Shown here: positions 19,960 through 29,301 of the stretch, in pieces
How the letters are laid out: the number at the start of each line of letters is the position of its first letter
Position numbering within the stretch: the first letter of the stretch is position 1
Sequence record: NC_041936.1
Direction: 5' to 3' (one strand)
DNA length: 64,000 nucleotides
DNA from: Escherichia phage ECD7
The notes under the pieces: generated by a model
Told to the model about the DNA's origin: nothing
Databases searched by the model: none
What the model saw: the letters and a program-made list of their open reading frames with translations, nothing else
Position numbers and translations under genes: made by a program

Positions 19960-20207
19960 GCTGCCCCCATTGGTTTGATAGTAACAGAATCTAAAAGACC
20001 TTTGTTAGCCAGTTCGCGGCAAGTTTTCAGATCCGTAACTTCCCAGCCAGCCGCAATCAGGTTATCAATGAGGCTGTTAGCAACTTCCTCGCTCATGAAA
20101 GAGCACTGTTTGCCGATGGTGTAGCGCACACGCTGTAATTTCAGTTTACGGAAGCCTTTAACGTTCAGGTCTTTAGCGATTTTCTTTGCGGTTTCGATGT
20201 TAGCCAT
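19956..20207 (-). CDS. hypothetical small early protein
   Basis: 83 aa, first gene after promoter cassette at 20208-20276. Confidence 0.5.
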   Translation of the reverse strand: MANIETAKKIAKDLNVKGFRKLKLQRVRYTIGKQCSFMSEEVANSLIDNLIAAGWEVTDLKTCRELANKGLLDSVTIKPMGAA

Positions 20208-20276
20208 TGTTTGATTCTCCTAAGTGGTATCTCGTCTTGATGGTTGTATTGTAGGGGAGTTATCCTCCCCTGTCAA
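20208..20276 (-). promoter_or_regulatory. early promoter cassette (PeSL-like) 2
   Basis: TTGACA, 17-bp spacer with palindrome GGGGAGGATAACTCCCC, TACAAT, leader, GGAGAATCAAACAATG. Confidence 0.55.
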
Positions 20277-20290
20277 CACTTTTTATAAAA

Positions 20291-20458
20291 TTATTTGTTA
20301 ATTTCTGGTGCGTTGCTCGGATAGTAACCTTCTTTAACGCCCAGGTATTTCGCAACCATCCCTACAATCTTCTGTGCTACTACAATGTCAAATTTCAGAT
20401 AATCTTCGCCGTGGGTTTCAATGATATATGCTTCACATGCTGCTTTAGTCTCGAACAT
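20291..20458 (-). CDS. hypothetical 55-aa protein (copy 1 of duplicated gene)
   Basis: read by eye: MFETKAACEAYIIETHGEDYLKFDIVVAQKIVGMVAKYLGVKEGYYPSNAPEINK; near-identical paralog at 23549-23716; own promoter cassette. Confidence 0.5.
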   Translation of the reverse strand: MFETKAACEAYIIETHGEDYLKFDIVVAQKIVGMVAKYLGVKEGYYPSNAPEINK

Positions 20459-20520
20459 TTTGATTCTCCTATTTCGTTTCGGTATGGGTGTATTATAGGG
20501 GATCTCCCGATCCCCGTCAA
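20459..20520 (-). promoter_or_regulatory. early promoter cassette (PeSL-like) 3
   Basis: TTGACG, spacer GGGGATCGGGAGATCCCC, TATAAT, leader CCGAAACGAAAT, GGAGAATCAAAATG. Confidence 0.6.
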
Positions 20521-20534
20521 CAACTTTTTTAAAA

Positions 20535-20816
20535 TTATTCGTGATTAGTTTCGATGTTGTGCATTTTGCACCAGTTCAGCCAATCGCCCAGATCTTGATA
20601 GTTGATGCTTTTATCTGCTGCCATCGTTTTTGTCTTGATACCCATATGTGCGTTATGAGTAAGCATTTTTACAGTGAACTCAATTTTATCGCCTTTAGCT
20701 TTAACATCAACCAGTTTGGTCCACTGGCTACCAGCGCCGCGAATGTTCATGCCAACGATGTTTCCGATGTATGCTTCTTTGTTTTTCAGGATTTCGGTTG
20801 CTTTGATGAATTTCAT
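20535..20816 (-). CDS. hypothetical small early protein
   Basis: 93 aa, promoter cassette upstream. Confidence 0.55.
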   Translation of the reverse strand: MKFIKATEILKNKEAYIGNIVGMNIRGAGSQWTKLVDVKAKGDKIEFTVKMLTHNAHMGIKTKTMAADKSINYQDLGDWLNWCKMHNIETNHE

Positions 20817-20878
20817 TTTTGATTCTCCAGTTCGTTTCGGTATGGGTGTATTATGCTATGTTCTTACTTTGGTGTCAA
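20817..20878 (-). promoter_or_regulatory. early promoter cassette 4
   Basis: TTGACA, 17 bp, CATAAT, conserved leader and GGAGAATCAAAA ATG; spacer not palindromic here. Confidence 0.55.
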
Positions 20879-20885
20879 CAACTTT

Positions 20886-21155
20886 TTAGATATTTTCAGA
20901 AATAAATTTTAAAACTTGACGTAAATGTTTCTCATCTTTGATAGTCGCCGGAAGTTCTTCTTTTACTTCCTGTGCAAGATAGATATTTCCGTTCCAAGTG
21001 AAAGATCCGTCTTCGTTTACGCGATAGCTGAACATCCACTCGCAATCATTTTCGATTTCATATACACACAGAAGGGTGTAATCGTTAAAGCTATTGATTT
21101 CAAGGTCGAAGCCGTGACGTTTTGCAAAGTTGGTAGTGGTTTTAGTCAGTGCCAT
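20886..21155 (-). CDS. hypothetical small early protein
   Basis: 89 aa, promoter cassette upstream. Confidence 0.55.
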   Translation of the reverse strand: MALTKTTTNFAKRHGFDLEINSFNDYTLLCVYEIENDCEWMFSYRVNEDGSFTWNGNIYLAQEVKEELPATIKDEKHLRQVLKFISENI

Positions 21156-21224
21156 TGTTTGATTCTCCTAAGTGGTATCTAGTTTCGATGGGTGTATTAT
21201 GCTATACACAGGATCTGGTGTCAA
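21156..21224 (-). promoter_or_regulatory. early promoter cassette 5
   Basis: TTGACA, 17 bp, CATAAT, leader CATCGAAAC.., GGAGAATCAAACAATG. Confidence 0.55.
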
Positions 21225-21248
21225 TGCCTTTTTTAAAATTTTATGCAA

Positions 21249-21274
21249 TAAAAAAGCCGACGCTATGGTCGGCT
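21249..21274 (-). terminator. rho-independent terminator
   Basis: AGCCGACCATAGCGTCGGCT hairpin followed by TTTTTTATT on minus strand. Confidence 0.6.
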
Positions 21275-21281
21275 AATAAAA

Positions 21282-21590
21282 TCATTTAGACAAATAATCA
21301 TTCTGTGCAATCCGGTCGGCGTATGCTGGTGTTATGTCAATCGCCAGCACTTTAACGCGTGCTTTCTTGCGACCTGGGTTTTCTCGTAACCAGTGCTCAT
21401 GACCGTGAATATTTTTATACTGCGATGCTTCTTCGAAGGTACGGATCGGACCTGGGTAATCAGCGTAAAGGATCTCTAGATCTTCGGTGATGTAAAAATA
21501 TACATCGTAATTGCTGTTCTCTAGCTTAAGCAGAGACTTTCGGAACATTGGGAGATTTTCGCGGGTAAATTCAAAGATATTATCTTTCAT
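21282..21590 (-). CDS. HxHW-family small protein (paralog 1)
   Basis: 102 aa; ..YFYITEDLEILY..HGHEHW..VKVLAIDI..; terminator downstream. Confidence 0.55.
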   Translation of the reverse strand: MKDNIFEFTRENLPMFRKSLLKLENSNYDVYFYITEDLEILYADYPGPIRTFEEASQYKNIHGHEHWLRENPGRKKARVKVLAIDITPAYADRIAQNDYLSK

Positions 21591-21613
21591 AGTATTATCC
21601 TCAATAGTTGGAT

Positions 21614-21636
21614 GAAAAGGGGCGTTAACGCCCCCA
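21614..21636 (-). terminator. rho-independent terminator
   Basis: GGGGCGTTAACGCCCC hairpin then TTTTCAT on minus strand. Confidence 0.5.
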
Positions 21637-21640
21637 TATA

Positions 21641-21928
21641 TTAAAACAGTCCTTCCTGTACACCGTAGTAGAGTTCGTCGCTGATAATTTCATTAATGCG
21701 ACGGTGTGCATATTCCTGATTTGCGAAGTTGTCAGCAAGTTCTACTTTAGTTTCGCCGTCATGAGTCCATTTAGTGATAACTTTACCATCTGCAAATTTG
21801 AAGTTGAACTCTTTAGCTACTGCATCGCGTACCAGACGTGCAAACTTATTGTTGCGGATTGCATTGTCGGTTTCGTGTGCAGCGTGAGCAAATTTGTTAA
21901 CTTTCAGAGTGATAGTGATGTATGCCAT
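21641..21928 (-). CDS. hypothetical small early protein (VAKEFN family)
   Basis: 95 aa; shares VAKEFNFK block with ORF 24934-25245; promoter cassette upstream, terminator downstream. Confidence 0.55.
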   Translation of the reverse strand: MAYITITLKVNKFAHAAHETDNAIRNNKFARLVRDAVAKEFNFKFADGKVITKWTHDGETKVELADNFANQEYAHRRINEIISDELYYGVQEGLF

Positions 21929-22003
21929 AATTTGATTCTCCTAGTTAGAAAGTGTATCTCGTTTCGATGGGGATATTATGCTATACCCCCGATCTGGTGT
22001 CAA
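21929..22003 (-). promoter_or_regulatory. early promoter cassette 6
   Basis: TTGACA, 17 bp, CATAAT, leader ..CATCGAAACGAGATAC.., GGAGAATCAAATTATG. Confidence 0.55.
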
Positions 22004-22009
22004 CACTTT

Positions 22010-22288
22010 TTATAAAATAATTTTTTGATATTTTTCTATGATGTTCGTGTAAGTCACATCAACCGCTAGCACCGTTGCTTCGAATCCACCGTTTAGCCAA
22101 TGGCTATGATCATGGTCGTGAAAGAAACCTAGTCCAGTACGAAGACCTTCTTTATATTCTGCGCGTACATTCAGTTTGTCGTCGATAAACAGATAAAACC
22201 ATGAATTTTTACTAGGATTGATGATACAACCTTTCAGATTAGGGAGAATATCACGACTAAGAATAAATTTATCACCTACTTTGAACAT
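22010..22288 (-). CDS. HxHW-family small protein (paralog 2)
   Basis: start set to ATG (MFKVGDK..) with GAGGA SD; ..FYLFIDDKLNV..HDHSHW..TVLAVDV.. Confidence 0.55.
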   Translation of the reverse strand: MFKVGDKFILSRDILPNLKGCIINPSKNSWFYLFIDDKLNVRAEYKEGLRTGLGFFHDHDHSHWLNGGFEATVLAVDVTYTNIIEKYQKIIL

Positions 22289-22292
22289 AATA

Positions 22293-22613
22293 TTAGTCCT
22301 CACTTATAAGGTCAAACCAATTGTTTTTCGCATAATGCTTAATGCGTGCTTGATCTGCTTCCGCTGGTGATAGATTCCATGCAACCACTACAACTTCTGA
22401 CGCATCGTCATCAGTTTCTGATACCCAATGATTGTGATTCATACAGTTATTTGCTATCGAGTGAGCAAATGATTTCATCACTGGAGACGTATAATCATAG
22501 TAACGGATTTTCAGATTTTCATCAACATACAAATAGATCGTATAAGGTTTATATTCAGTAACCAGTAACAGACAGTTACGCAATTCTGGGAAAATCTTTT
22601 TAGTTAATTTCAT
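22293..22613 (-). CDS. HxHW-family small protein (paralog 3)
   Basis: 106 aa; ..YLYVDENLKIRY..NHNHW.. Confidence 0.5.
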   Translation of the reverse strand: MKLTKKIFPELRNCLLLVTEYKPYTIYLYVDENLKIRYYDYTSPVMKSFAHSIANNCMNHNHWVSETDDDASEVVVVAWNLSPAEADQARIKHYAKNNWFDLISED

Positions 22614-22815
22614 ATTCTAGTTCTCCGTAATACACAGTAATCCATTTTTCTTCATACTTTGTATCTTTCCAGCACACAACCCCGTTTACTGTGCAATCTT
22701 TGGAATTGACGAATGATTCATATTGTTCTGCATCTTCCATCATTTCATGAGCGGTCTTTTCATCGAATATATCGCAGATCGCTTTATATGCTCGATAATC
22801 TTTAAATTTGCTCAT
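22600..22815 (-). CDS. hypothetical small protein (MSKFKDY tandem paralog a)
   Basis: start set to ATG MSKFKDYRAYK; paralogous to next ORF. Confidence 0.5.
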   Translation of the reverse strand: MSKFKDYRAYKAICDIFDEKTAHEMMEDAEQYESFVNSKDCTVNGVVCWKDTKYEEKWITVYYGELEYEIN

Positions 22816-22817
22816 AA

Positions 22818-23027
22818 TTAACACCACTCAAGAGTTTTTGAAAACACATCTATCCATTGTTGAGTATATGCGGTTTCTTTCCATGATACAATACCAGTCG
22901 AATAATGGTTTTTGTTTCCAGAAAAGGACGGGCATTTTGATGCATCTTCCATCATCTTTTCGGCGAACTCTGGTGCGTATACTCGCAAGATCTGTTGATA
23001 TGCTTTGTAGTCTTTAAATTTGCTCAT
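22818..23027 (-). CDS. hypothetical small protein (MSKFKDY tandem paralog b)
   Basis: 69 aa MSKFKDYKAYQQ...; tandem duplicate of 22600-22815. Confidence 0.5.
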   Translation of the reverse strand: MSKFKDYKAYQQILRVYAPEFAEKMMEDASKCPSFSGNKNHYSTGIVSWKETAYTQQWIDVFSKTLEWC

Positions 23028-23292
23028 AATCGTTAACTACCTTATCAGCTTCTTTTATTGTTTTTACATCAACTGCGATAATACGTAAAGGTTCGTCGAA
23101 GGTCCACCAATGATCGTGAATATCAGCTTGTGATTTATCACCAAAGGAATCACGAATATCATTTTTACATTTATAGCTAATGTGACCGTTATAGTCAACA
23201 TAAAGGTAATTATCGAAAATCGGCGTTTTTAAGATCATACCGAAAAATCTTTCTTTGTGTGTCTTATCCAGCGTTGCAGTAATTCGCATCAT
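23014..23292 (-). CDS. HxHW-family small protein (paralog 4)
   Basis: 92 aa; ..YLYVDYNGHISY..HDHWW..RIIAVDV.. Confidence 0.55.
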   Translation of the reverse strand: MMRITATLDKTHKERFFGMILKTPIFDNYLYVDYNGHISYKCKNDIRDSFGDKSQADIHDHWWTFDEPLRIIAVDVKTIKEADKVVNDYEQI

Positions 23293-23304
23293 AATATATT
23301 CCTC

Positions 23305-23484
23305 TTAGAAAGGGATGGTCATTTCTTGAGCTTGTACATTCTCGTTAGGATTAAACTTCATCCAACCGATATTGTCTACCAGCATATACACATTTTTATC
23401 ATATCCTACGTGAGTAGTCAACACTAAATGTGCTTTACCTTCAACGATGATTTCCATGTACTTCTGAACTTCGATAGCTTTCAT
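23305..23484 (-). CDS. hypothetical 59-aa protein
   Basis: read by eye (MKAIEVQKYMEII...), ATG directly after promoter cassette; under 60 aa so absent from track. Confidence 0.45.
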   Translation of the reverse strand: MKAIEVQKYMEIIVEGKAHLVLTTHVGYDKNVYMLVDNIGWMKFNPNENVQAQEMTIPF

Positions 23485-23545
23485 TTTGATTCTCCGTTTG
23501 TTGTCTTGATGGGAGTATCTTACTACTCCCTTTAATCATTGTCAA
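23485..23545 (-). promoter_or_regulatory. early promoter cassette (PeSL-like) 7
   Basis: TTGACA, spacer then inverted repeat GGGAGTAGTAAGATACTCCC overlapping a TAAGAT -10, leader, GGAGAATCAAAATG. Confidence 0.5.
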
Positions 23546-23548
23546 CGA

Positions 23549-23716
23549 TTATTTGTTAATTTCCGGTGCGTTGCTTGGATAGTAACCTTCTTTAACACCC
23601 AGATATTTTGCAACCATTCCGGTGATCTTCTGTGCCACTACGATATCGAATTTCAGGTAGTCTTCACCGTGGGTTGCTACAATGTATGCTTCGCATTCTG
23701 CTTTAGTCTGGAACAT
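23549..23716 (-). CDS. hypothetical 55-aa protein (copy 2 of duplicated gene)
   Basis: MFQTKAECEAYIVATHGEDYLKFDIVVAQKITGMVAKYLGVKEGYYPSNAPEINK; roughly 85-90 percent nt identity by eye to 20291-20458. Confidence 0.5.
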   Translation of the reverse strand: MFQTKAECEAYIVATHGEDYLKFDIVVAQKITGMVAKYLGVKEGYYPSNAPEINK

Positions 23717-23778
23717 TTTGATTCTCCTTTATCTCGTTGGTATGTGTGCATTATAGGGGATCACCGATCCCCTGTCAA
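23717..23778 (-). promoter_or_regulatory. early promoter cassette (PeSL-like) 8
   Basis: TTGACA, GGGGATCGGTGATCCCC, TATAAT, leader, GGAGAATCAAAATG; duplicated with cassette 3 together with its gene. Confidence 0.6.
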
Positions 23779-23783
23779 CAACT

Positions 23784-24079
23784 TTATAATGCTTTATATG
23801 CGTATTTCATAAATTTGTCTGCCACTTCATTGGCATGTTCAGATTCTACGCCTGATTCGAGAACAATAGCTAGGTCGGTTTCGTCATTCCCGCCGTACCA
23901 ATGATTTGATGTTCGATTTTTTTCAATTGGAAATTGGTCACTTTTATCTGTGCGACAAAATACATCTAAATGCTCGTCGATGTAAAAGATCCAATCTTCA
24001 TAAAGAATAACGGTATTAGCCAGATTTTTATTGCCTTCAACGAAAGGTTCGGCTACAAACAAATTAGTATGTTCCATAG
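23784..24079 (-). CDS. HxHW-family small protein (paralog 5)
   Basis: start set to ATG MEHTNLFV.. (SD GAGGAAAT); ..ILYEDWIFYIDEHLDV..SNHW..LAIVLE. Confidence 0.5.
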
Positions 24080-24093
24080 TAATTTCCTCAAAA

Positions 24094-24285
24094 TTATACA
24101 GCTTCGTAAACTTCCCAATGTCCAACACCAGCACGCTTAACGAAAAGGTTTTCTTTGATGTTATTCATAAACGTCTGGATGGATTTAATGCGGTTTGAAG
24201 GTTTCCATTCTTCGTTGGCATTGCGTCGATACATCATAACATTACCAGTTCGCTTATATTCAGCAACCATTTTAAGACCACACAT
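24094..24285 (-). CDS. hypothetical small protein
   Basis: 63-aa ORF in same transcription unit. Confidence 0.45.
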   Translation of the reverse strand: MCGLKMVAEYKRTGNVMMYRRNANEEWKPSNRIKSIQTFMNNIKENLFVKRAGVGHWEVYEAV

Positions 24286-24342
24286 AATATTATCCTCAAT
24301 TTGCGGGAGAGTATTACCCCTCCCAATGATTGTTATGTTATA

Positions 24343-24663
24343 TCACACAAAATGGCGTGTCAATGCTTCTTTTGCGGTTCCGCTAAGACTTTCGATCTCG
24401 CCTGGCATAACATCAACCGCCAGAACTTCTACAACATCCTCGGACCCTAACCAGTGAGTATGGCCTTTGTAGAACTTGATAACCAGACTACCTTCCTCGT
24501 CCCATTTAACGCTATCGCTAGCCCACCACACATCACCGTCGATAAAGTTGATGTAAAGCACACTACGCAACATTGAATTAATTACTTTCAATACTGCGCC
24601 TTTCATCTCTTCCACGGTATGGTCTTCCATTTTGAAGACCATACCTACCTGAACTTTTGCCAT
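24343..24663 (-). CDS. HxHW-family small protein (paralog 6)
   Basis: 106 aa; ..LYINFIDGDVWW..KGHTHWLGSEDVVEVLAVDV.. Confidence 0.55.
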   Translation of the reverse strand: MAKVQVGMVFKMEDHTVEEMKGAVLKVINSMLRSVLYINFIDGDVWWASDSVKWDEEGSLVIKFYKGHTHWLGSEDVVEVLAVDVMPGEIESLSGTAKEALTRHFV

Positions 24664-24680
24664 TTAGTCACCTCTCTTTA

Positions 24681-24860
24681 TTACATAACAATCACGCCAG
24701 CCGTTGAAAGTTGATGTTTCAACTGAGCATTTTCTGCTACCGTCAAATCAATGATTTCTTGTGACGCTGCAATCATATATCCATTGGTGATATTGTTTTG
24801 CATCAGTTCAATGGTTTCTTCGTTGTAGCGGATTTTAGCGATGATTTCGTTGAAGTTCAT
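24681..24860 (-). CDS. hypothetical 59-aa protein
   Basis: read by eye (MNFNEIIAKIRYNEETIELMQ...), ATG directly after promoter cassette. Confidence 0.45.
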   Translation of the reverse strand: MNFNEIIAKIRYNEETIELMQNNITNGYMIAASQEIIDLTVAENAQLKHQLSTAGVIVM

Positions 24861-24924
24861 GATTGATTCTCCTAGTTCGTTTCGGTATGTGTGTAGTATA
24901 GGGGATCTCCCGATCCCCTGTCAA
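24861..24924 (-). promoter_or_regulatory. early promoter cassette (PeSL-like) 9
   Basis: TTGACA, GGGGATCGGGAGATCCCC, TATACT, leader ..CCGAAACGAAC.., GGAGAATCAATCATG. Confidence 0.6.
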
Positions 24925-24933
24925 CAACTTTTT

Positions 24934-25245
24934 TTAAAGTTTTTCCATGATAACGGTCATAATTACATCTTCTGCGCGAGCGGTCAGATTATCAGCGTCA
25001 GCATGTGGGCGGTTGGTTGTTACAGAGATAACACCGTTGCGCACTGGTTTGATATTGATATCAAGATGATCCGCGAAACGTTCGCCAGTTACAGAATGAA
25101 TTTTGGTGTTAAATTCTTTTGCCAGTGCCTTGCGAACTTCACGAATCAGGGTAGCGTTTTTCAGTTGGTTCTCCGCGCTCATGGTCTTCTGGGTGTTCAT
25201 GGTTCCGTCGAAGTCAATCATTGGCAGCGTTACGATGTATTTCAT
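24934..25245 (-). CDS. hypothetical small early protein (VAKEFN family)
   Basis: 103 aa; LAKEFNTK block shared with 21641-21928; promoter cassette upstream. Confidence 0.55.
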   Translation of the reverse strand: MKYIVTLPMIDFDGTMNTQKTMSAENQLKNATLIREVRKALAKEFNTKIHSVTGERFADHLDINIKPVRNGVISVTTNRPHADADNLTARAEDVIMTVIMEKL

Positions 25246-25319
25246 TTTTGATTCTCCGTTTAAGAAAGTGTGTTTCGTTTTGATGTGTGTAGTATAGGGG
25301 ATACGTGATCCCCTGTCAA
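25246..25319 (-). promoter_or_regulatory. early promoter cassette (PeSL-like) 10
   Basis: TTGACA, GGGGATCACGTATCCCC, TATACT, leader, GGAGAATCAAAAATG. Confidence 0.6.
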
Positions 25320-25332
25320 CAACTTTTTTGAA

Positions 25333-25809
25333 TTATTTTTCTTGATGCTCGCGCTCGTACTTTTCGAAATAAAATTCTACTGGCTGGTCATGAATTGACA
25401 GCAAGCCAAAGCGTTTAGCCGCTCGCAATCCCATATTGCGCTGAATGTACTTCTGGAAGTTCTCGCGTATACACTTACGCCAGTATTCTAAGCCCATACA
25501 GCTTTTATAAAGATTGCATTGTACACACGCCGGATTCATGTTATCAAGTATATCATGTTCCGGTTTATGCATTCCTACAACCTTATACTTCCACGACCCA
25601 TCATCATTACGGGCAATTCGTCCATTTTCATCATAGACTACCTTTGAGCGTCGCAATACTGGTTTGATATGGTCTGCGTGCCAGCGATCCCCTAGTTCCT
25701 CGCCACAATAGGCACAACGCCCACCGTATTTCATTTTCAGGATCTGGCGTTGCTCTTTCTTTGACAATTTTTTAGGTTTAGGGGCTTTCGCCCCTTCATT
25801 ATCACACAT
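25333..25809 (-). CDS. HNH endonuclease (free-standing, homing-type)
   Basis: CAYCG..DRWHADHIKP..N..CVQCN: HNH motif with paired CxxC zinc knuckles; start overlaps ligase stop. Confidence 0.7.
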   Translation of the reverse strand: MCDNEGAKAPKPKKLSKKEQRQILKMKYGGRCAYCGEELGDRWHADHIKPVLRRSKVVYDENGRIARNDDGSWKYKVVGMHKPEHDILDNMNPACVQCNLYKSCMGLEYWRKCIRENFQKYIQRNMGLRAAKRFGLLSIHDQPVEFYFEKYEREHQEK

Positions 25810-27298
25810 CGAATACCTCTTTTACTGTATTTGCAGTGGTCTTGTCGTAGCGAATACGTTTGATGATTGGGAGAAATAAAGAGAACTCCGGTTCATCTTC
25901 TTTACGTGATTTGCTGCGGATATACCCGTTGCATGTCATCTCAATGACTTTTCCAATCAGGTTATGACGGTCAGTCCATAACATTTCTCGGTCGAGTTCA
26001 TTTCGACGATCGAACGGAATTACACGTTCAGTACCATCATCACCTTTTTCGGTTGTAGTGTCGGTTAATCCCGATCCGGTGTTAGTCATCATTCGTCCGC
26101 ACGCACTACGGACAGTAAAACCGCCTACCTTATTGGGGTCTTTACTATGCGGATATACATCAACAATTTCCGCGTCGAAGTCAATCACTTCTTTAAATTT
26201 AACCTGATCTTTACTACGGCGATCTTCAAATACACCATGTAAATTTTTAAGGATAATACCTTCTAAGCCCATGTTTACATAGCGATGATATACTTCGCGA
26301 GCTTCATCGATATTGTTAACTACAGTGTTTTCGATTATCTGAACACGAGGATCGTTAAGTTCTTCAACAATCTGTTTTAGCTCTTCGAATCGATCTTTAT
26401 ATTGCTTCGTTGCTTTCTCGTTTCCGTAATACACATCACGGTCGATAACATCCCAGACAGTGTAAACAATACATTGGGCTTCTTCTTTTGGAATAGTTCC
26501 TTTCAGTGATTTGTTGAGGATACCATTTCCGGTCTGACGATCTGCAACAACGGATTCTTTCACCGCTTCCGCTACTGGCGTTAATGGCATTTCCTCTTCT
26601 TCAAATATCCATGACAGAGTACCATCATAAACGCTCTCAACGAAGTTCTGCGCTGGTGTTTGCGAAAGGGTAGGCATATATACCAATTCGCCATCTAGAA
26701 CAATTCCACGGCCTCGTAGACTCTCTAAAACCGCAAACAAATCATCAAGCCCTTGATAGGTATTACCTGAACGGGTATAGATTGCTAATGTTTCCCCGTC
26801 AATATCAGCCATACCACGAGCGCCATCGCTTTTAAGTTGTGCATACGCCGGATATTTGATATTGGCAATGGTCTTATCAGAACATGACGATGCAAGGTGG
26901 CACGGCTGCTGGGGGATCAGTTTCTTCCATACCTTGTTTGCAGTGGTAGCGGAACAACCGCATTCCAGGTCACGATTCAGGACCATCATTGCAACTTTAG
27001 CATCATCTTCTGACAAGCAAGTCAGAGTATCGGTAACTAGCTGTAATGCTGCATTACCAGTTACTTGACGTGTGGCAAGTTTATTTTTAAAGACTTGTAA
27101 TGCACCGGATAAAGACAATACAGACGAATAGCGCGATGGTTTATCGTATTTCTTTACGCCAAACGTAACCTGTTTGCAATATGCCAGATAAAAGCATTCT
27201 TTCAGTGTTTCATTGCTTGCAGATTCTTTCAGGATCTTTTCTTTCAGCGATGTTTTGTCTGTTGCTGCAAGCTGATTAATGATATTAAGAATTGACAT
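25802..27298 (-). CDS. 30: ATP-dependent DNA ligase gp30
   Basis: ..KYPAYAQLKSDGARG.. (adenylation motif I KxDG), LTGNAA.., DLECG.. match recalled T4 ligase; start moved from track GTG to ATG (MSILNI..). Confidence 0.9.
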   Translation of the reverse strand: MSILNIINQLAATDKTSLKEKILKESASNETLKECFYLAYCKQVTFGVKKYDKPSRYSSVLSLSGALQVFKNKLATRQVTGNAALQLVTDTLTCLSEDDAKVAMMVLNRDLECGCSATTANKVWKKLIPQQPCHLASSCSDKTIANIKYPAYAQLKSDGARGMADIDGETLAIYTRSGNTYQGLDDLFAVLESLRGRGIVLDGELVYMPTLSQTPAQNFVESVYDGTLSWIFEEEEMPLTPVAEAVKESVVADRQTGNGILNKSLKGTIPKEEAQCIVYTVWDVIDRDVYYGNEKATKQYKDRFEELKQIVEELNDPRVQIIENTVVNNIDEAREVYHRYVNMGLEGIILKNLHGVFEDRRSKDQVKFKEVIDFDAEIVDVYPHSKDPNKVGGFTVRSACGRMMTNTGSGLTDTTTEKGDDGTERVIPFDRRNELDREMLWTDRHNLIGKVIEMTCNGYIRSKSRKEDEPEFSLFLPIIKRIRYDKTTANTVKEVFDV

Positions 27299-28000: not shown

Positions 28001-28324
28001 TTAACCGTAAACTACCACAATATTCTGTTTGTGCGTTACAGTCCATTTCAGGTCGATCTCTTCTTCCTTCTTAACGCCGTTAATAACGTCTGGATGAGGA
28101 ACTTTATTAAGTTTCCCATGAGGAAGCAATACAGTCTTGCCCAGCAATTCTTTATCAACGTTATCACCGATATCAATAATCTTACCGACTAAAGGAATCT
28201 CTCCCATAGTTCGTTTTTGCTCGATGATAATACCAAAATCGCTCTTTACTTCGGTCCCTGCGCTTTCCGCTTTAGCTTCAATGATCACATAGTCACCAAG
28301 TGCTTTAGGAGTTTTAACGGTCAT
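28001..28324 (-). CDS. 31: co-chaperonin gp31 (GroES-like)
   Basis: 107 aa; ..LGDYVIIE..GIIIEQKR..GKIIDIG.. GroES/gp31-like pattern; position between ligase and cd. Confidence 0.7.
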   Translation of the reverse strand: MTVKTPKALGDYVIIEAKAESAGTEVKSDFGIIIEQKRTMGEIPLVGKIIDIGDNVDKELLGKTVLLPHGKLNKVPHPDVINGVKKEEEIDLKWTVTHKQNIVVVYG

Positions 28325-28360: not shown

Positions 28361-28972
28361 TTATTTATATTTCGCGACCTTTGGATTTCGCCGCAGACCG
28401 GAATGTATTTGCGCTATACAACAATAAGAAACATTAAACATATCAGCTATAATTTGCTTCTTAACTTTTCCTTTAAGCCGCATTATTTCTTCGACTTGCG
28501 CATTTGTCAGTTTTGCCCGTGAGTGGTTTTCACCGACATTGTTATTGAGTCCAGTTCTAAATGAATGTCTCATATTTTCTAGTAAGGTTACTATTTCTAG
28601 ATTCCACACATAATTGCAGGTTTTTACACCATTGATGTGATTAACCTCAAGTCCGGTAACGTCTCCTAGAAATGCATTTGCTACAAGTCGATGTATCTTT
28701 TCGGCTTTAACTGAGATTTTACCATTGTCTTTTTGTTTTGACAATGTTGAATAATAATATCCATATCGGTCTAAAATTGGTTTTATTATTTTACCAGCCC
28801 GTTTTTGTTTTACGAGCTTAATATTACCGGGAGAAACTTCTCTATAAAATTCGATACTTCGGTCAATAGATCTCAATCTACCATAATTAGAGATTTCATA
28901 CCACGGATAACCTACAGCTTGTCTCCATTCTTCCGGCGCTGGTAATACGATATTATCATCTTTTGTTTCCAT
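28361..28972 (-). CDS. HNH homing endonuclease with NUMOD4-like N-terminus
   Basis: WYEISNYGRLRS (NUMOD4-like), EVNHINGVKTCN (HNH), GENHSRAKLT; start set to ATG two codons inside the track TTG start. Confidence 0.7.
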   Translation of the reverse strand: METKDDNIVLPAPEEWRQAVGYPWYEISNYGRLRSIDRSIEFYREVSPGNIKLVKQKRAGKIIKPILDRYGYYYSTLSKQKDNGKISVKAEKIHRLVANAFLGDVTGLEVNHINGVKTCNYVWNLEIVTLLENMRHSFRTGLNNNVGENHSRAKLTNAQVEEIMRLKGKVKKQIIADMFNVSYCCIAQIHSGLRRNPKVAKYK

Positions 28973-28974
28973 TG

Positions 28975-29301
28975 TCAACTGCCACCGTAAATTTCAACGA
29001 TCTGCGCTGGAGTCAGCCCGTCTACATTAATCAGACTATCAAGCCCAATACTACGGAAACCTTCAACTGCAATTTCATATACTGGCAAAGATGTTTCTGA
29101 TTCTTTACGCGGTTTTTCAACATTAGGAACTAACCACTTTTCGTATGTTTCGAAAGGCATCAGTGCCGGATCTCGCGTAGCGATCATATCTCGGACAGTA
29201 CCATCTTTCTTAGTAAACTGCAAAGAGTGAGTACCGACAGAAAACATTTTCTTTAGTGCTTCACGAAGTGCGATATTATCAATTTGTTCAGTCATTATCA
29301 A
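28975..29301 (-). CDS. hypothetical protein
   Basis: 108-aa ORF between HNH gene and cd. Confidence 0.5.
   Translation of the reverse strand: MIMTEQIDNIALREALKKMFSVGTHSLQFTKKDGTVRDMIATRDPALMPFETYEKWLVPNVEKPRKESETSLPVYEIAVEGFRSIGLDSLINVDGLTPAQIVEIYGGS

What the first reader, a model, noticed from the sequence alone, without database searches (positions are those of the whole stretch)
21282..24663. Six-member paralogous family of small early proteins with a conserved H-x-H-W ... LA(V/I)D motif
ORFs at 21282-21590, 22010-22288, 22293-22613, 23014-23292, 23784-24079 and 24343-24663 (92-106 aa) share an N-terminal hydrophobic beta-like block (Y-x-Y-[IV]-D-[ED]-x-L) and a C-terminal H-x-H-W motif followed by [VI]-L-A-[VI]-D-[VI]. 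Six diverged copies within 3.4 kb suggests repeated duplication under diversifying selection, as seen for anti-defence or host-takeover families. I do not recognise the family.
Basis: seen in the sequence. Interest (0 to 1): 0.65.

Follow-up and report, generated by a model that had tools for sequence, protein, structure and literature searches.

The report
Six-copy orphan early-gene family, RB49-like phage
Six small genes in a plastic early region of an RB49-like (Krischvirus) coliphage are real, anciently duplicated copies of one protein family whose predicted fold matched no solved structure; its function is unknown, it is probably an accessory host-interaction protein, and this is a modest lead.

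Summary
The window is a Krischvirus (RB49-like T4-type coliphage), and the six minus-strand ORFs correspond to RB49p197, 199, 200, 203, 206 and 208. All six belong to one family by leave-one-out HMMs, shuffles and profile-profile comparison; c5 is the weakest member. No seventh copy exists in the 64 kb.

The genes sit in RB49's hyperplastic region HPR3, inside three of the transcription units that start at PeSL early-promoter cassettes. Orthologues are under purifying selection (dN/dS 0.08-0.25), not diversifying selection. Natural isolates have lost c1-c4 or c5-c6 by recombination between PeSL repeats, and none examined lacks all six.

Function is untested. My best guess is a dimeric early host-factor or anti-defence binder. 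The two-His metal site is weakened, because the first His is Ser in this window's c5.

The parts
21282..21590 (-). c1 (102 aa), equivalent to RB49p197. Second and last gene of the PeSL unit that starts at 22003.
22010..22288 (-). c2 (92 aa), equivalent to RB49p199.
   Evidence: AF2 pLDDT 88.5.
22293..22613 (-). c3 (106 aa), equivalent to RB49p200. Closest paralogue of c1 (33% identity, E 3e-11).
23014..23292 (-). c4 (92 aa), equivalent to RB49p203.
23784..24077 (-). c5 (97 aa), equivalent to RB49p206. The most divergent member.
24343..24663 (-). c6 (106 aa), equivalent to RB49p208.
24861..24955 (-). PeSL early-promoter cassette: A-rich UP element, TTGACA, a GGGGATC..GATCCCC stem-loop in the spacer, TATACT, and a conserved leader with GGAGAATCAA SD. 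It heads the unit orf59a-c6-orf63-c5.
   Evidence: PMC2839356
23485..23575 (-). PeSL-type promoter without the stem-loop (TTGACA-17-TAAGAT). It heads the unit orf59b-c4-orf69-orf72-c3-c2.
21929..22034 (-). PeSL-type promoter (TTGACA-17-CATAAT). It heads the unit orf95-c1.
21255..21274 (-). Intrinsic-terminator-like hairpin plus T-run, 8 nt after the c1 stop codon.
23548..23785 (-). Direct repeat D1, copy 2 (PeSL plus 55-aa ORF). It is 84% identical to copy 1 at 20290-20527. Recombination between the two copies deletes c1-c4 in phages FL04 and Cognac.
20290..20527 (-). Direct repeat D1, copy 1 (PeSL plus 55-aa ORF).
25243..25326 (-). PeSL upstream of orf103. It is the recombination partner of the PeSL at 23702-23785 in the phiS deletion, which removes c5 and c6.

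Best explanation
The six ORFs are real protein-coding genes of one old paralogous family. The family is confined to Krischvirus (RB49-like T4-type coliphages) and a few uncultured relatives.

Shown:
- c1 and c2, the two copies modelled, are predicted to have the same compact fold: beta1, short helix, beta2-beta3-beta4, a variable loop, a short helix carrying the invariant H-W (usually H-x-H-W), beta5 and a C-terminal helix. All six are soluble and acidic to neutral.
- The genes lie in hyperplastic region HPR3, between the DNA ligase/HNH genes and the methyltransferase/alt genes.
- They are never the first gene of the three transcription units that carry them, each headed by a PeSL-type early-promoter cassette.
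- Copy content changes by homologous recombination between these cassettes. Isolates exist that lack c1-c4 or c5-c6, and others carry a replaced c2 slot.

Inferred:
- The proteins are made immediately after infection.
- They act stoichiometrically rather than as enzymes, binding a host (or phage) macromolecule or small ligand through the surface formed by the invariant His-Trp and the adjacent variable loop.
- They probably work as homo- or heterodimers, because a natural tandem two-domain fusion exists.
- The paralogues cover different target variants, giving partial redundancy.
- The most likely biological role is accessory host takeover or counter-defence.

Confidence by layer: real family of accessory early genes about 0.9; binder with a host-interaction or anti-defence role about 0.4.
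For: Family membership is supported statistically.

Purifying selection acts on all six copies.

Each gene has a Shine-Dalgarno sequence and lies in a compact operon.

Nine aligned PeSL cassettes carry consensus -35 and -10 elements. PeSLs were shown experimentally to be promoters, terminators and recombination sites in RB49 and phi1 (PMC2839356).

The AF2 models are confident and share one topology: c1 pLDDT 84 and pTM 0.80; c2 pLDDT 88.5 and pTM 0.84.

There is no transmembrane segment, and pI values are 4.5-6.9.

Gene order is conserved in RB49, JK32, Brandy, G2248, E26, UPWr_E1 and kvi.

Natural losses occur at repeat junctions: FL04 and Cognac lack c1-c4, and phiS lacks c5-c6. No examined genome lacks all six.

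A 203-aa tandem fusion, P0089, occurs in a metagenomic array of five domains.

Variation among orthologues, including indels, concentrates in the loop next to the invariant H-W.

Segmental amplification of counter-defence genes is documented in T4 (PMC9391042).
Against: There is no functional, expression or interaction data for any member.

There is no signature of positive selection.

An invariant polar His-Trp could equally mark a catalytic or cofactor site.

The fusion protein comes from a single short assembled contig.

The AFDB fold library was unavailable.
Confidence: 0.5

Rival explanations
1. The proteins are small metal-binding proteins or metalloenzymes. The H-x-H pair, with an acidic residue from the Y-I-D-E strand or across a dimer interface, coordinates Zn, Ni or Fe.
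Confidence: 0.12
2. The proteins are sponges for nucleotide-derived immune signals, in the manner of Tad1, Tad2 and Acb2. The His-Trp pocket stacks on a base, and the paralogues are tuned to different signals.
Confidence: 0.1
3. The proteins are nucleic-acid- or RNA-polymerase-binding regulators with an SH3-like (KOW/Tudor-type) barrel that modulate early transcription or translation.
For: One c2 orthologue is labelled 'KOW2-KOW3 domains of Spt5' in nr. The profile hits Spindlin Tudor-like repeats at E 0.06 over profile positions 4-47. c2 and c6 start with a KOW-like K-V-G-D/x motif. The five strands are compatible with a small barrel.
Confidence: 0.1
4. The genes are neutral passengers. They spread and persist only because they hitch-hike on recombinogenic PeSL cassettes and have no function for the phage.
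For: They lie in the PeSL-rich HPR3. Subsets are dispensable in isolates that grow on E. coli K-12.
Against: dN/dS is 0.08-0.25 in every copy. Order and content are conserved over about 50 genomes and in a divergent metagenomic relative. The motif is invariant across 15-30% identical paralogues. The genes are never the PeSL-proximal single-gene cassette.
Confidence: 0.08
5. The similarity is chance, or the ORFs are non-coding.
For: Some pairwise BLAST E-values are poor, for example c4-c5 at 69. The leave-one-out E-value for c5 is 0.088.
Against: Leave-one-out ranks, shuffles and profile-profile results all support the family. The two AF2 models share one topology. Purifying selection acts on every copy.
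Confidence: 0.01

Closest known systems
PeSL-flanked ORFan cassettes of RB49/phi1 hyperplastic regions (Arbiol, Comeau, Kutateladze, Adamia, Krisch 2010, PMC2839356; Comeau et al. 2014, PMC4122927)
   Same: This is the same genomic region (HPR3) and the same promoter-stem-loop cassettes. The same recombination mechanism is seen here as natural deletions with junctions in PeSL repeats. The genes are database-orphan early genes.
   Different: The papers do not describe this paralogous family. The family genes are internal members of multi-gene units rather than single ORFans bracketed by two PeSLs.
PHROGs phrog_9345, 17255, 15972, 15965 and 16486 (all 'unknown function')
   Same: These groups contain exactly these proteins.
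   Different: PHROGs splits them into five families. Only c1, c3 and weakly c2 are linked. Here all six, plus metagenomic members, are joined into one family.
Small early accessory or counter-defence proteins of T4-type phages (TifA, Dmd, Arn, IPI*) and their segmental amplification (Srikant et al. 2022, PMC9391042)
   Same: These are also small, soluble, early-expressed, dispensable genes in plastic regions. Tandem amplification by recombination is a documented route to copy-number gain.
   Different: No sequence or fold similarity was detected. No defence phenotype has been tested. The copies here are ancient and diverged, not recent dosage amplifications.
Weak structural neighbours: Tis1 immunity protein (6ox6_B), AcrIIA7 (8kbi_A), Tad2 (9eib_A)
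   Same: They are small alpha+beta inhibitor or sponge proteins of similar size, with 55-67 residues superposable.

Membership tests
The H-x-H-W family itself (all six copies as one family) | A significant profile match of each copy to a model built without it | tested here: met
   Leave-one-out E-values run from 9e-12 to 2.5e-4 for five copies. c5 is 0.088 but top-ranked, with 2 of 2000 shuffles reaching it and hhalign 91.8% to c1.
The H-x-H-W family itself | A shared predicted fold | tested here: met
   c1 and c2 models have the same order of secondary-structure elements, with pTM 0.80 and 0.84. Paralogues from other phages are recovered by structure in BFVD. c3-c6 were not modelled.
The H-x-H-W family itself | An invariant H-x-H-W motif | tested here: inconclusive
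   H-W is invariant in all 34 aligned members. The first His is Ser in window c5 and Asp in P0093 and P0101.
PeSL regulatory cassette (Arbiol 2010) | A sigma-70 consensus -35 and -10 with an AT-rich upstream element | tested here: met
   Nine aligned cassettes score 10-12 of 12 hexamer matches and carry an A-rich UP element.
PeSL regulatory cassette (Arbiol 2010) | A G/C-tract stem-loop within the cassette | tested here: met
   A GGGGATC..GATCCCC-type (G-tract/C-tract) inverted repeat lies in the spacer of 5 of 9 cassettes; the others lack it.
PeSL regulatory cassette (Arbiol 2010) | Mediates insertion or deletion of the flanked genes by recombination | tested here: met
   The FL04 and Cognac junctions, and the phiS junction, map to PeSL-containing repeats.
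Metal-binding H-x-H sites (for example metallo-beta-lactamase HxHxDH, cupin) | A complete, conserved ligand set and a matching fold | tested here: not met
KOW / Tudor-like SH3 barrels | A significant sequence or structure match to the barrel | tested here: not met
Known anti-defence proteins (Acr, Tad, Acb, Ocr/Arn-type) | Homology to a characterised member, or a demonstrated inhibition phenotype | tested here: not met
   There is no significant PDB sequence or fold match. No dedicated anti-defence HMM library was available, and the phenotype is not testable here.
Known defence-system components | A match to PADLOC models | tested here: not met
   There is one hit at E 0.029 among 27 members.

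The most novel reading that the evidence does not exclude
The family is a new fold class of phage counter-defence proteins. A conserved His-Trp ligand or target anchor sits beside a specificity loop. Six dimerising paralogues form an 'anti-defence array' that lets Krischvirus neutralise several E. coli immune systems. From my own knowledge, not checked here, Krischvirus unlike T4 carries unmodified cytosine DNA. The array would be reshaped by PeSL-mediated recombination.
Probability: 0.2. Interest if true: 0.7.

Novelty: new member of a known kind. Interest (0 to 1): 0.38.

Why it matters
Krischvirus phages are common therapeutic and model coliphages, yet their early hyperplastic regions are annotated almost entirely as 'hypothetical protein'.

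Joining six orphan genes, which PHROGs splits into five groups, into one family gives a tractable target. The family has a confident predicted fold that matches nothing in PDB, and an invariant His-Trp motif.

Natural isolates that lack c1-c4 (FL04, Cognac) or c5-c6 (phiS) already exist. They could be compared directly on defence-system and strain panels.

If the proteins prove to be counter-defence factors, they would add a new inhibitor fold. They would also give a worked example of how PeSL recombination builds and prunes such arrays. If not, the result is still a cleaner annotation of a well-known plastic region.

Tried and rejected
- **Domain libraries.** Pfam, NCBIfam and PADLOC scans gave no significant hit.
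- **PDB sequence profile.** Only Spindlin (E 0.06) and PhtD (E 0.07) appeared, and I rejected both as non-significant.
- **BFVD Foldseek.** Only family members were returned.
- **AFDB50.** The library was not available.
- **Deep HMMER search.** It found 18 clusters. P0099, a 1034-aa MAM-like repeat protein at E 2.9e-4, was rejected as a repeat-driven chance match.
- **Word-index searches.** Three searches found no fusions to known domains.
- **IMG/VR scans.** P0096 and P0098 found nothing, and the family alignment was too divergent for pattern scanning.
- **Positive selection.** Tests over whole genes and over the variable loop were negative.
- **A seventh copy or degenerate half-copy** (for example orf63, which ends in GHWEVYEAV). 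The HMM did not detect one.
- **Literature.** Searches for a prior description of the family found none.
Full report
**Identity of the window.** Bases 20000-26000 are 94-98% identical to about 57 Krischvirus genomes, including JEP8, ELT4, kvi and RB49. The flanking genes are DNA ligase gp30, an HNH endonuclease and a DNA methyltransferase. The six ORFs correspond to RB49p197, 199, 200, 203, 206 and 208, all annotated as 'hypothetical protein'.

**Checking the observation.**
- The six minus-strand ORFs exist.
The correct gene is 23784-24077.
- The alignment shows the described blocks: [YF]-x-[YF]-[IV]-[DT]-[ED]-x-L, H-x-H-W, and [VI]-[LIV]-A-x-[DN]-[VIL] followed by E-A-D.
- The blocks are less uniform than stated. 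Window c5 reads SNHW and VLESGV, and c3 reads VVAWNL. Only H and W are invariant across 34 diverse members.

**Is the similarity more than chance?**
- Pairwise BLAST is convincing only for c1-c3 (E 3e-11).
- An HMM of any five copies retrieves the sixth as the best non-training hit among all 599 ORFs of at least 40 codons in the window. E-values run from 9e-12 to 2.5e-4, with c5 at 0.088.
- No shuffle out of 2000 reaches the real score for five copies, and 2 of 2000 do for c5.
- Profile-profile comparison of orthologue groups links c5 to c1 at 91.8% probability. c4 links most weakly, at 64% to c2.
- No further member exists in the 64 kb.

**Are they genes?**
- Each has a GAGG/GGAG Shine-Dalgarno sequence at the right spacing and tight or overlapping junctions with its neighbours.
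- Across 8-9 Krischvirus loci, dN/dS is 0.08-0.25 for every copy.
- None has a transmembrane-like segment, and pI values are 4.5-6.9.

**Predicted structure.**
- AlphaFold2 with family alignments gives confident models: c1 pLDDT 84 and pTM 0.80; c2 pLDDT 88.5 and pTM 0.84.
- Both have the same element order: beta1, short helix, beta2, beta3, beta4, a long lower-confidence loop, a short helix containing H-x-H-W, beta5 and a C-terminal helix.
- BFVD returns only family members. AFDB was not available.

**Known families.**
- Pfam, NCBIfam and PADLOC give nothing significant.
- A PDB sequence-profile search gives only Spindlin (E 0.06) and PhtD (E 0.07).
- PHROGs places the six proteins in five separate unknown-function groups.

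**Distribution.**
- A word-indexed search of 5.8 billion proteins found 87 hits. All are orthologues at 69% identity or more to one of the six, many of them on 163-176 kb contigs and the rest on short assembly fragments.
- An exhaustive HMMER search of 1.84 billion cluster representatives found only 18 clusters at E of 0.001 or better. Eleven were new diverged members of 84-111 aa, plus a 203-aa protein made of two tandem family domains. A 1034-aa MAM-like repeat protein at E 2.9e-4 is taken as spurious.
- tblastn against 50,697 phage records hits only Krischvirus.
- A 2.1-kb metagenomic contig (L011) carries five family domains, interleaved with homologues of the same small neighbour ORFs (orf59a, orf59b) as in the window. 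The array therefore predates the genus-level radiation.
- Lower-GC contigs (31-35%) carry a single c5-like copy beside homologues of other window genes.

**Genomic context.**
- Nine conserved cassettes of about 95 nt precede the first genes of successive minus-strand units. Each has an A-rich UP element, TTGACA, a 17-18-nt spacer that in five cases holds a GGGGATC..GATCCCC-type hairpin, TATAAT-like -10, and a conserved leader with GGAGAATCAAA-ATG.
- These are the PeSLs (promoter-early stem-loops) that Arbiol et al. described for exactly this region, HPR3 of RB49. They showed PeSLs to be promoters, terminators and recombination substrates that produce mini-circles (PMC2839356).
- The family genes are never PeSL-proximal. 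The units are orf59a-c6-orf63-c5, orf59b-c4-orf69-orf72-c3-c2, and orf95-c1 followed by a terminator-like hairpin.
- The region holds other paralogue pairs: orf55a/orf55b at 91%, orf69/orf72 at 44%, and orf95/orf103 weakly. All the neighbours are Pfam-orphan.

**Natural variation.**
- Order c6-c5-c4-c3-c2-c1 is conserved in RB49, JK32, Brandy, G2248, E26, UPWr_E1 and kvi.
- FL04 and Cognac lack c1-c4. The junction falls in the 238-nt direct repeat D1, which consists of a PeSL plus orf55 (window 20290-20527 and 23548-23785).
- phiS lacks orf103, orf59a, c6, orf63 and c5, with a junction in two PeSLs. By coverage, G5211 and PTE-Eco09 look the same.
- JSE and a 170-kb metagenomic genome have the c2 slot replaced by a second c3-like gene, and JSE's c1 is frameshifted.
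- Each half of the array is therefore dispensable for growth on laboratory E. coli, but no genome examined has lost all members.

**Selection.**
- Amino-acid variation and indels among orthologues concentrate in the loop before H-x-H-W and at the termini.
- Loop pN/pS is 0.27 against 0.23 for the rest, with c5's loop at 0.47. There is no evidence of positive selection.
The paralogues look like old duplicates that are now conserved.

**Mechanism.**
- Shown: a real family with a shared predicted fold, located behind early promoters, reshuffled through PeSLs, and dispensable in subsets.
- Inferred: early expression, and stoichiometric binding of a host or phage target or ligand through the His-Trp plus variable-loop surface.
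- Also inferred: dimerisation, by Rosetta-stone logic from the tandem fusion, and partial redundancy among paralogues.
- An accessory host-takeover or counter-defence role is favoured for three reasons. This is what small early genes of T4-type hyperplastic regions typically do. Counter-defence loci in T4 are known to expand by recombination (PMC9391042). And, from my own knowledge and not tested here, RB49-type DNA carries unmodified cytosine, so these phages rely on protein-based countermeasures.
- Rival readings cannot be excluded: a metal site, a nucleotide sponge, an SH3-like regulator, or a neutral passenger. The metal-site idea is weakened by loss of the first His in three lineages.

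**Novelty and score.**
- The genes are already in GenBank and PHROGs as unknowns, and the region's plasticity is published.
- New here are the unification into one family, the predicted fold with no PDB match, the invariant His-Trp, the tandem fusion, and the natural half-array deletions.
- I found no prior description of the family.
- This is a solid but ordinary kind of finding, an orphan accessory family in a phage hyperplastic region. It has moderate follow-up value, so interest is 0.38.

Noticed in passing
window 28361-28978 (-): A 205-aa NUMOD4 + HNH_3 homing-endonuclease gene is inserted between the gp31 co-chaperonin homologue (28001-28324) and the 31.1 homologue (28975-29301). This stretch is absent from FL04, UPWr_E1 and the 170-kb metagenomic relative L002.
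   Followed up: partly
window 20290-20527 and 23548-23785 (-): A 238-nt direct repeat (84% identity) consists of a PeSL plus a 55-aa ORF; the two ORF copies are 91% identical at protein level. It is the junction of the 3.26-kb deletion seen in FL04 and Cognac. Part of the 55-aa ORF (window about 23576-23735) is 69% identical at DNA level to the siphoviruses vB_EcoS_swi2 and Bas81, which suggests exchange between unrelated phages.
   Followed up: partly
window 22600-23027 (-): Two tandem, overlapping paralogues (orf72 and orf69, 44% identity, both starting MSKFKDY) sit between c4 and c3. They form a second orphan family inside the same unit.
   Followed up: partly
window 21641-21928 and 24934-25245 (-): orf95 and orf103, both the first gene after a PeSL, are weakly similar at their N-termini (36% over 50 aa, E 0.011). 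orf103 occupies the position of RB49 ORF210, whose PeSL mini-circles were shown by Arbiol et al.
   Followed up: no
window 20459-20534: Only a single PeSL lies between orf55a and orf93, where RB49 carries ORFan192 (RB49p192). This window therefore has the phi1-type arrangement described in PMC2839356.
   Followed up: partly
L011 820-1431 (Logan SRR8048117 contig): A 203-aa ORF (P0089) joins two family domains in tandem by a Lys/Asp-rich linker, within an array of five family domains in 2.1 kb.
   Followed up: partly
L017 (phage JSE) 4821-5128 and 7181-7475: The JSE orthologues of c1 and c5 are split or truncated in the deposited record. This is either a frameshift pseudogene or a sequencing error.
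   Followed up: no
window 24335-24363 and 22287-22315 (-): Extra sigma-70-like consensus matches (10 of 12) lie inside the 3' ends of c6 and c3. They could be internal promoters for orf63-c5 and for c2. These are consensus matches only.
   Followed up: no
window 25333-25809 (-): A 158-aa HNH endonuclease gene overlaps the end of the DNA ligase gene and borders the hyperplastic region.
   Followed up: no
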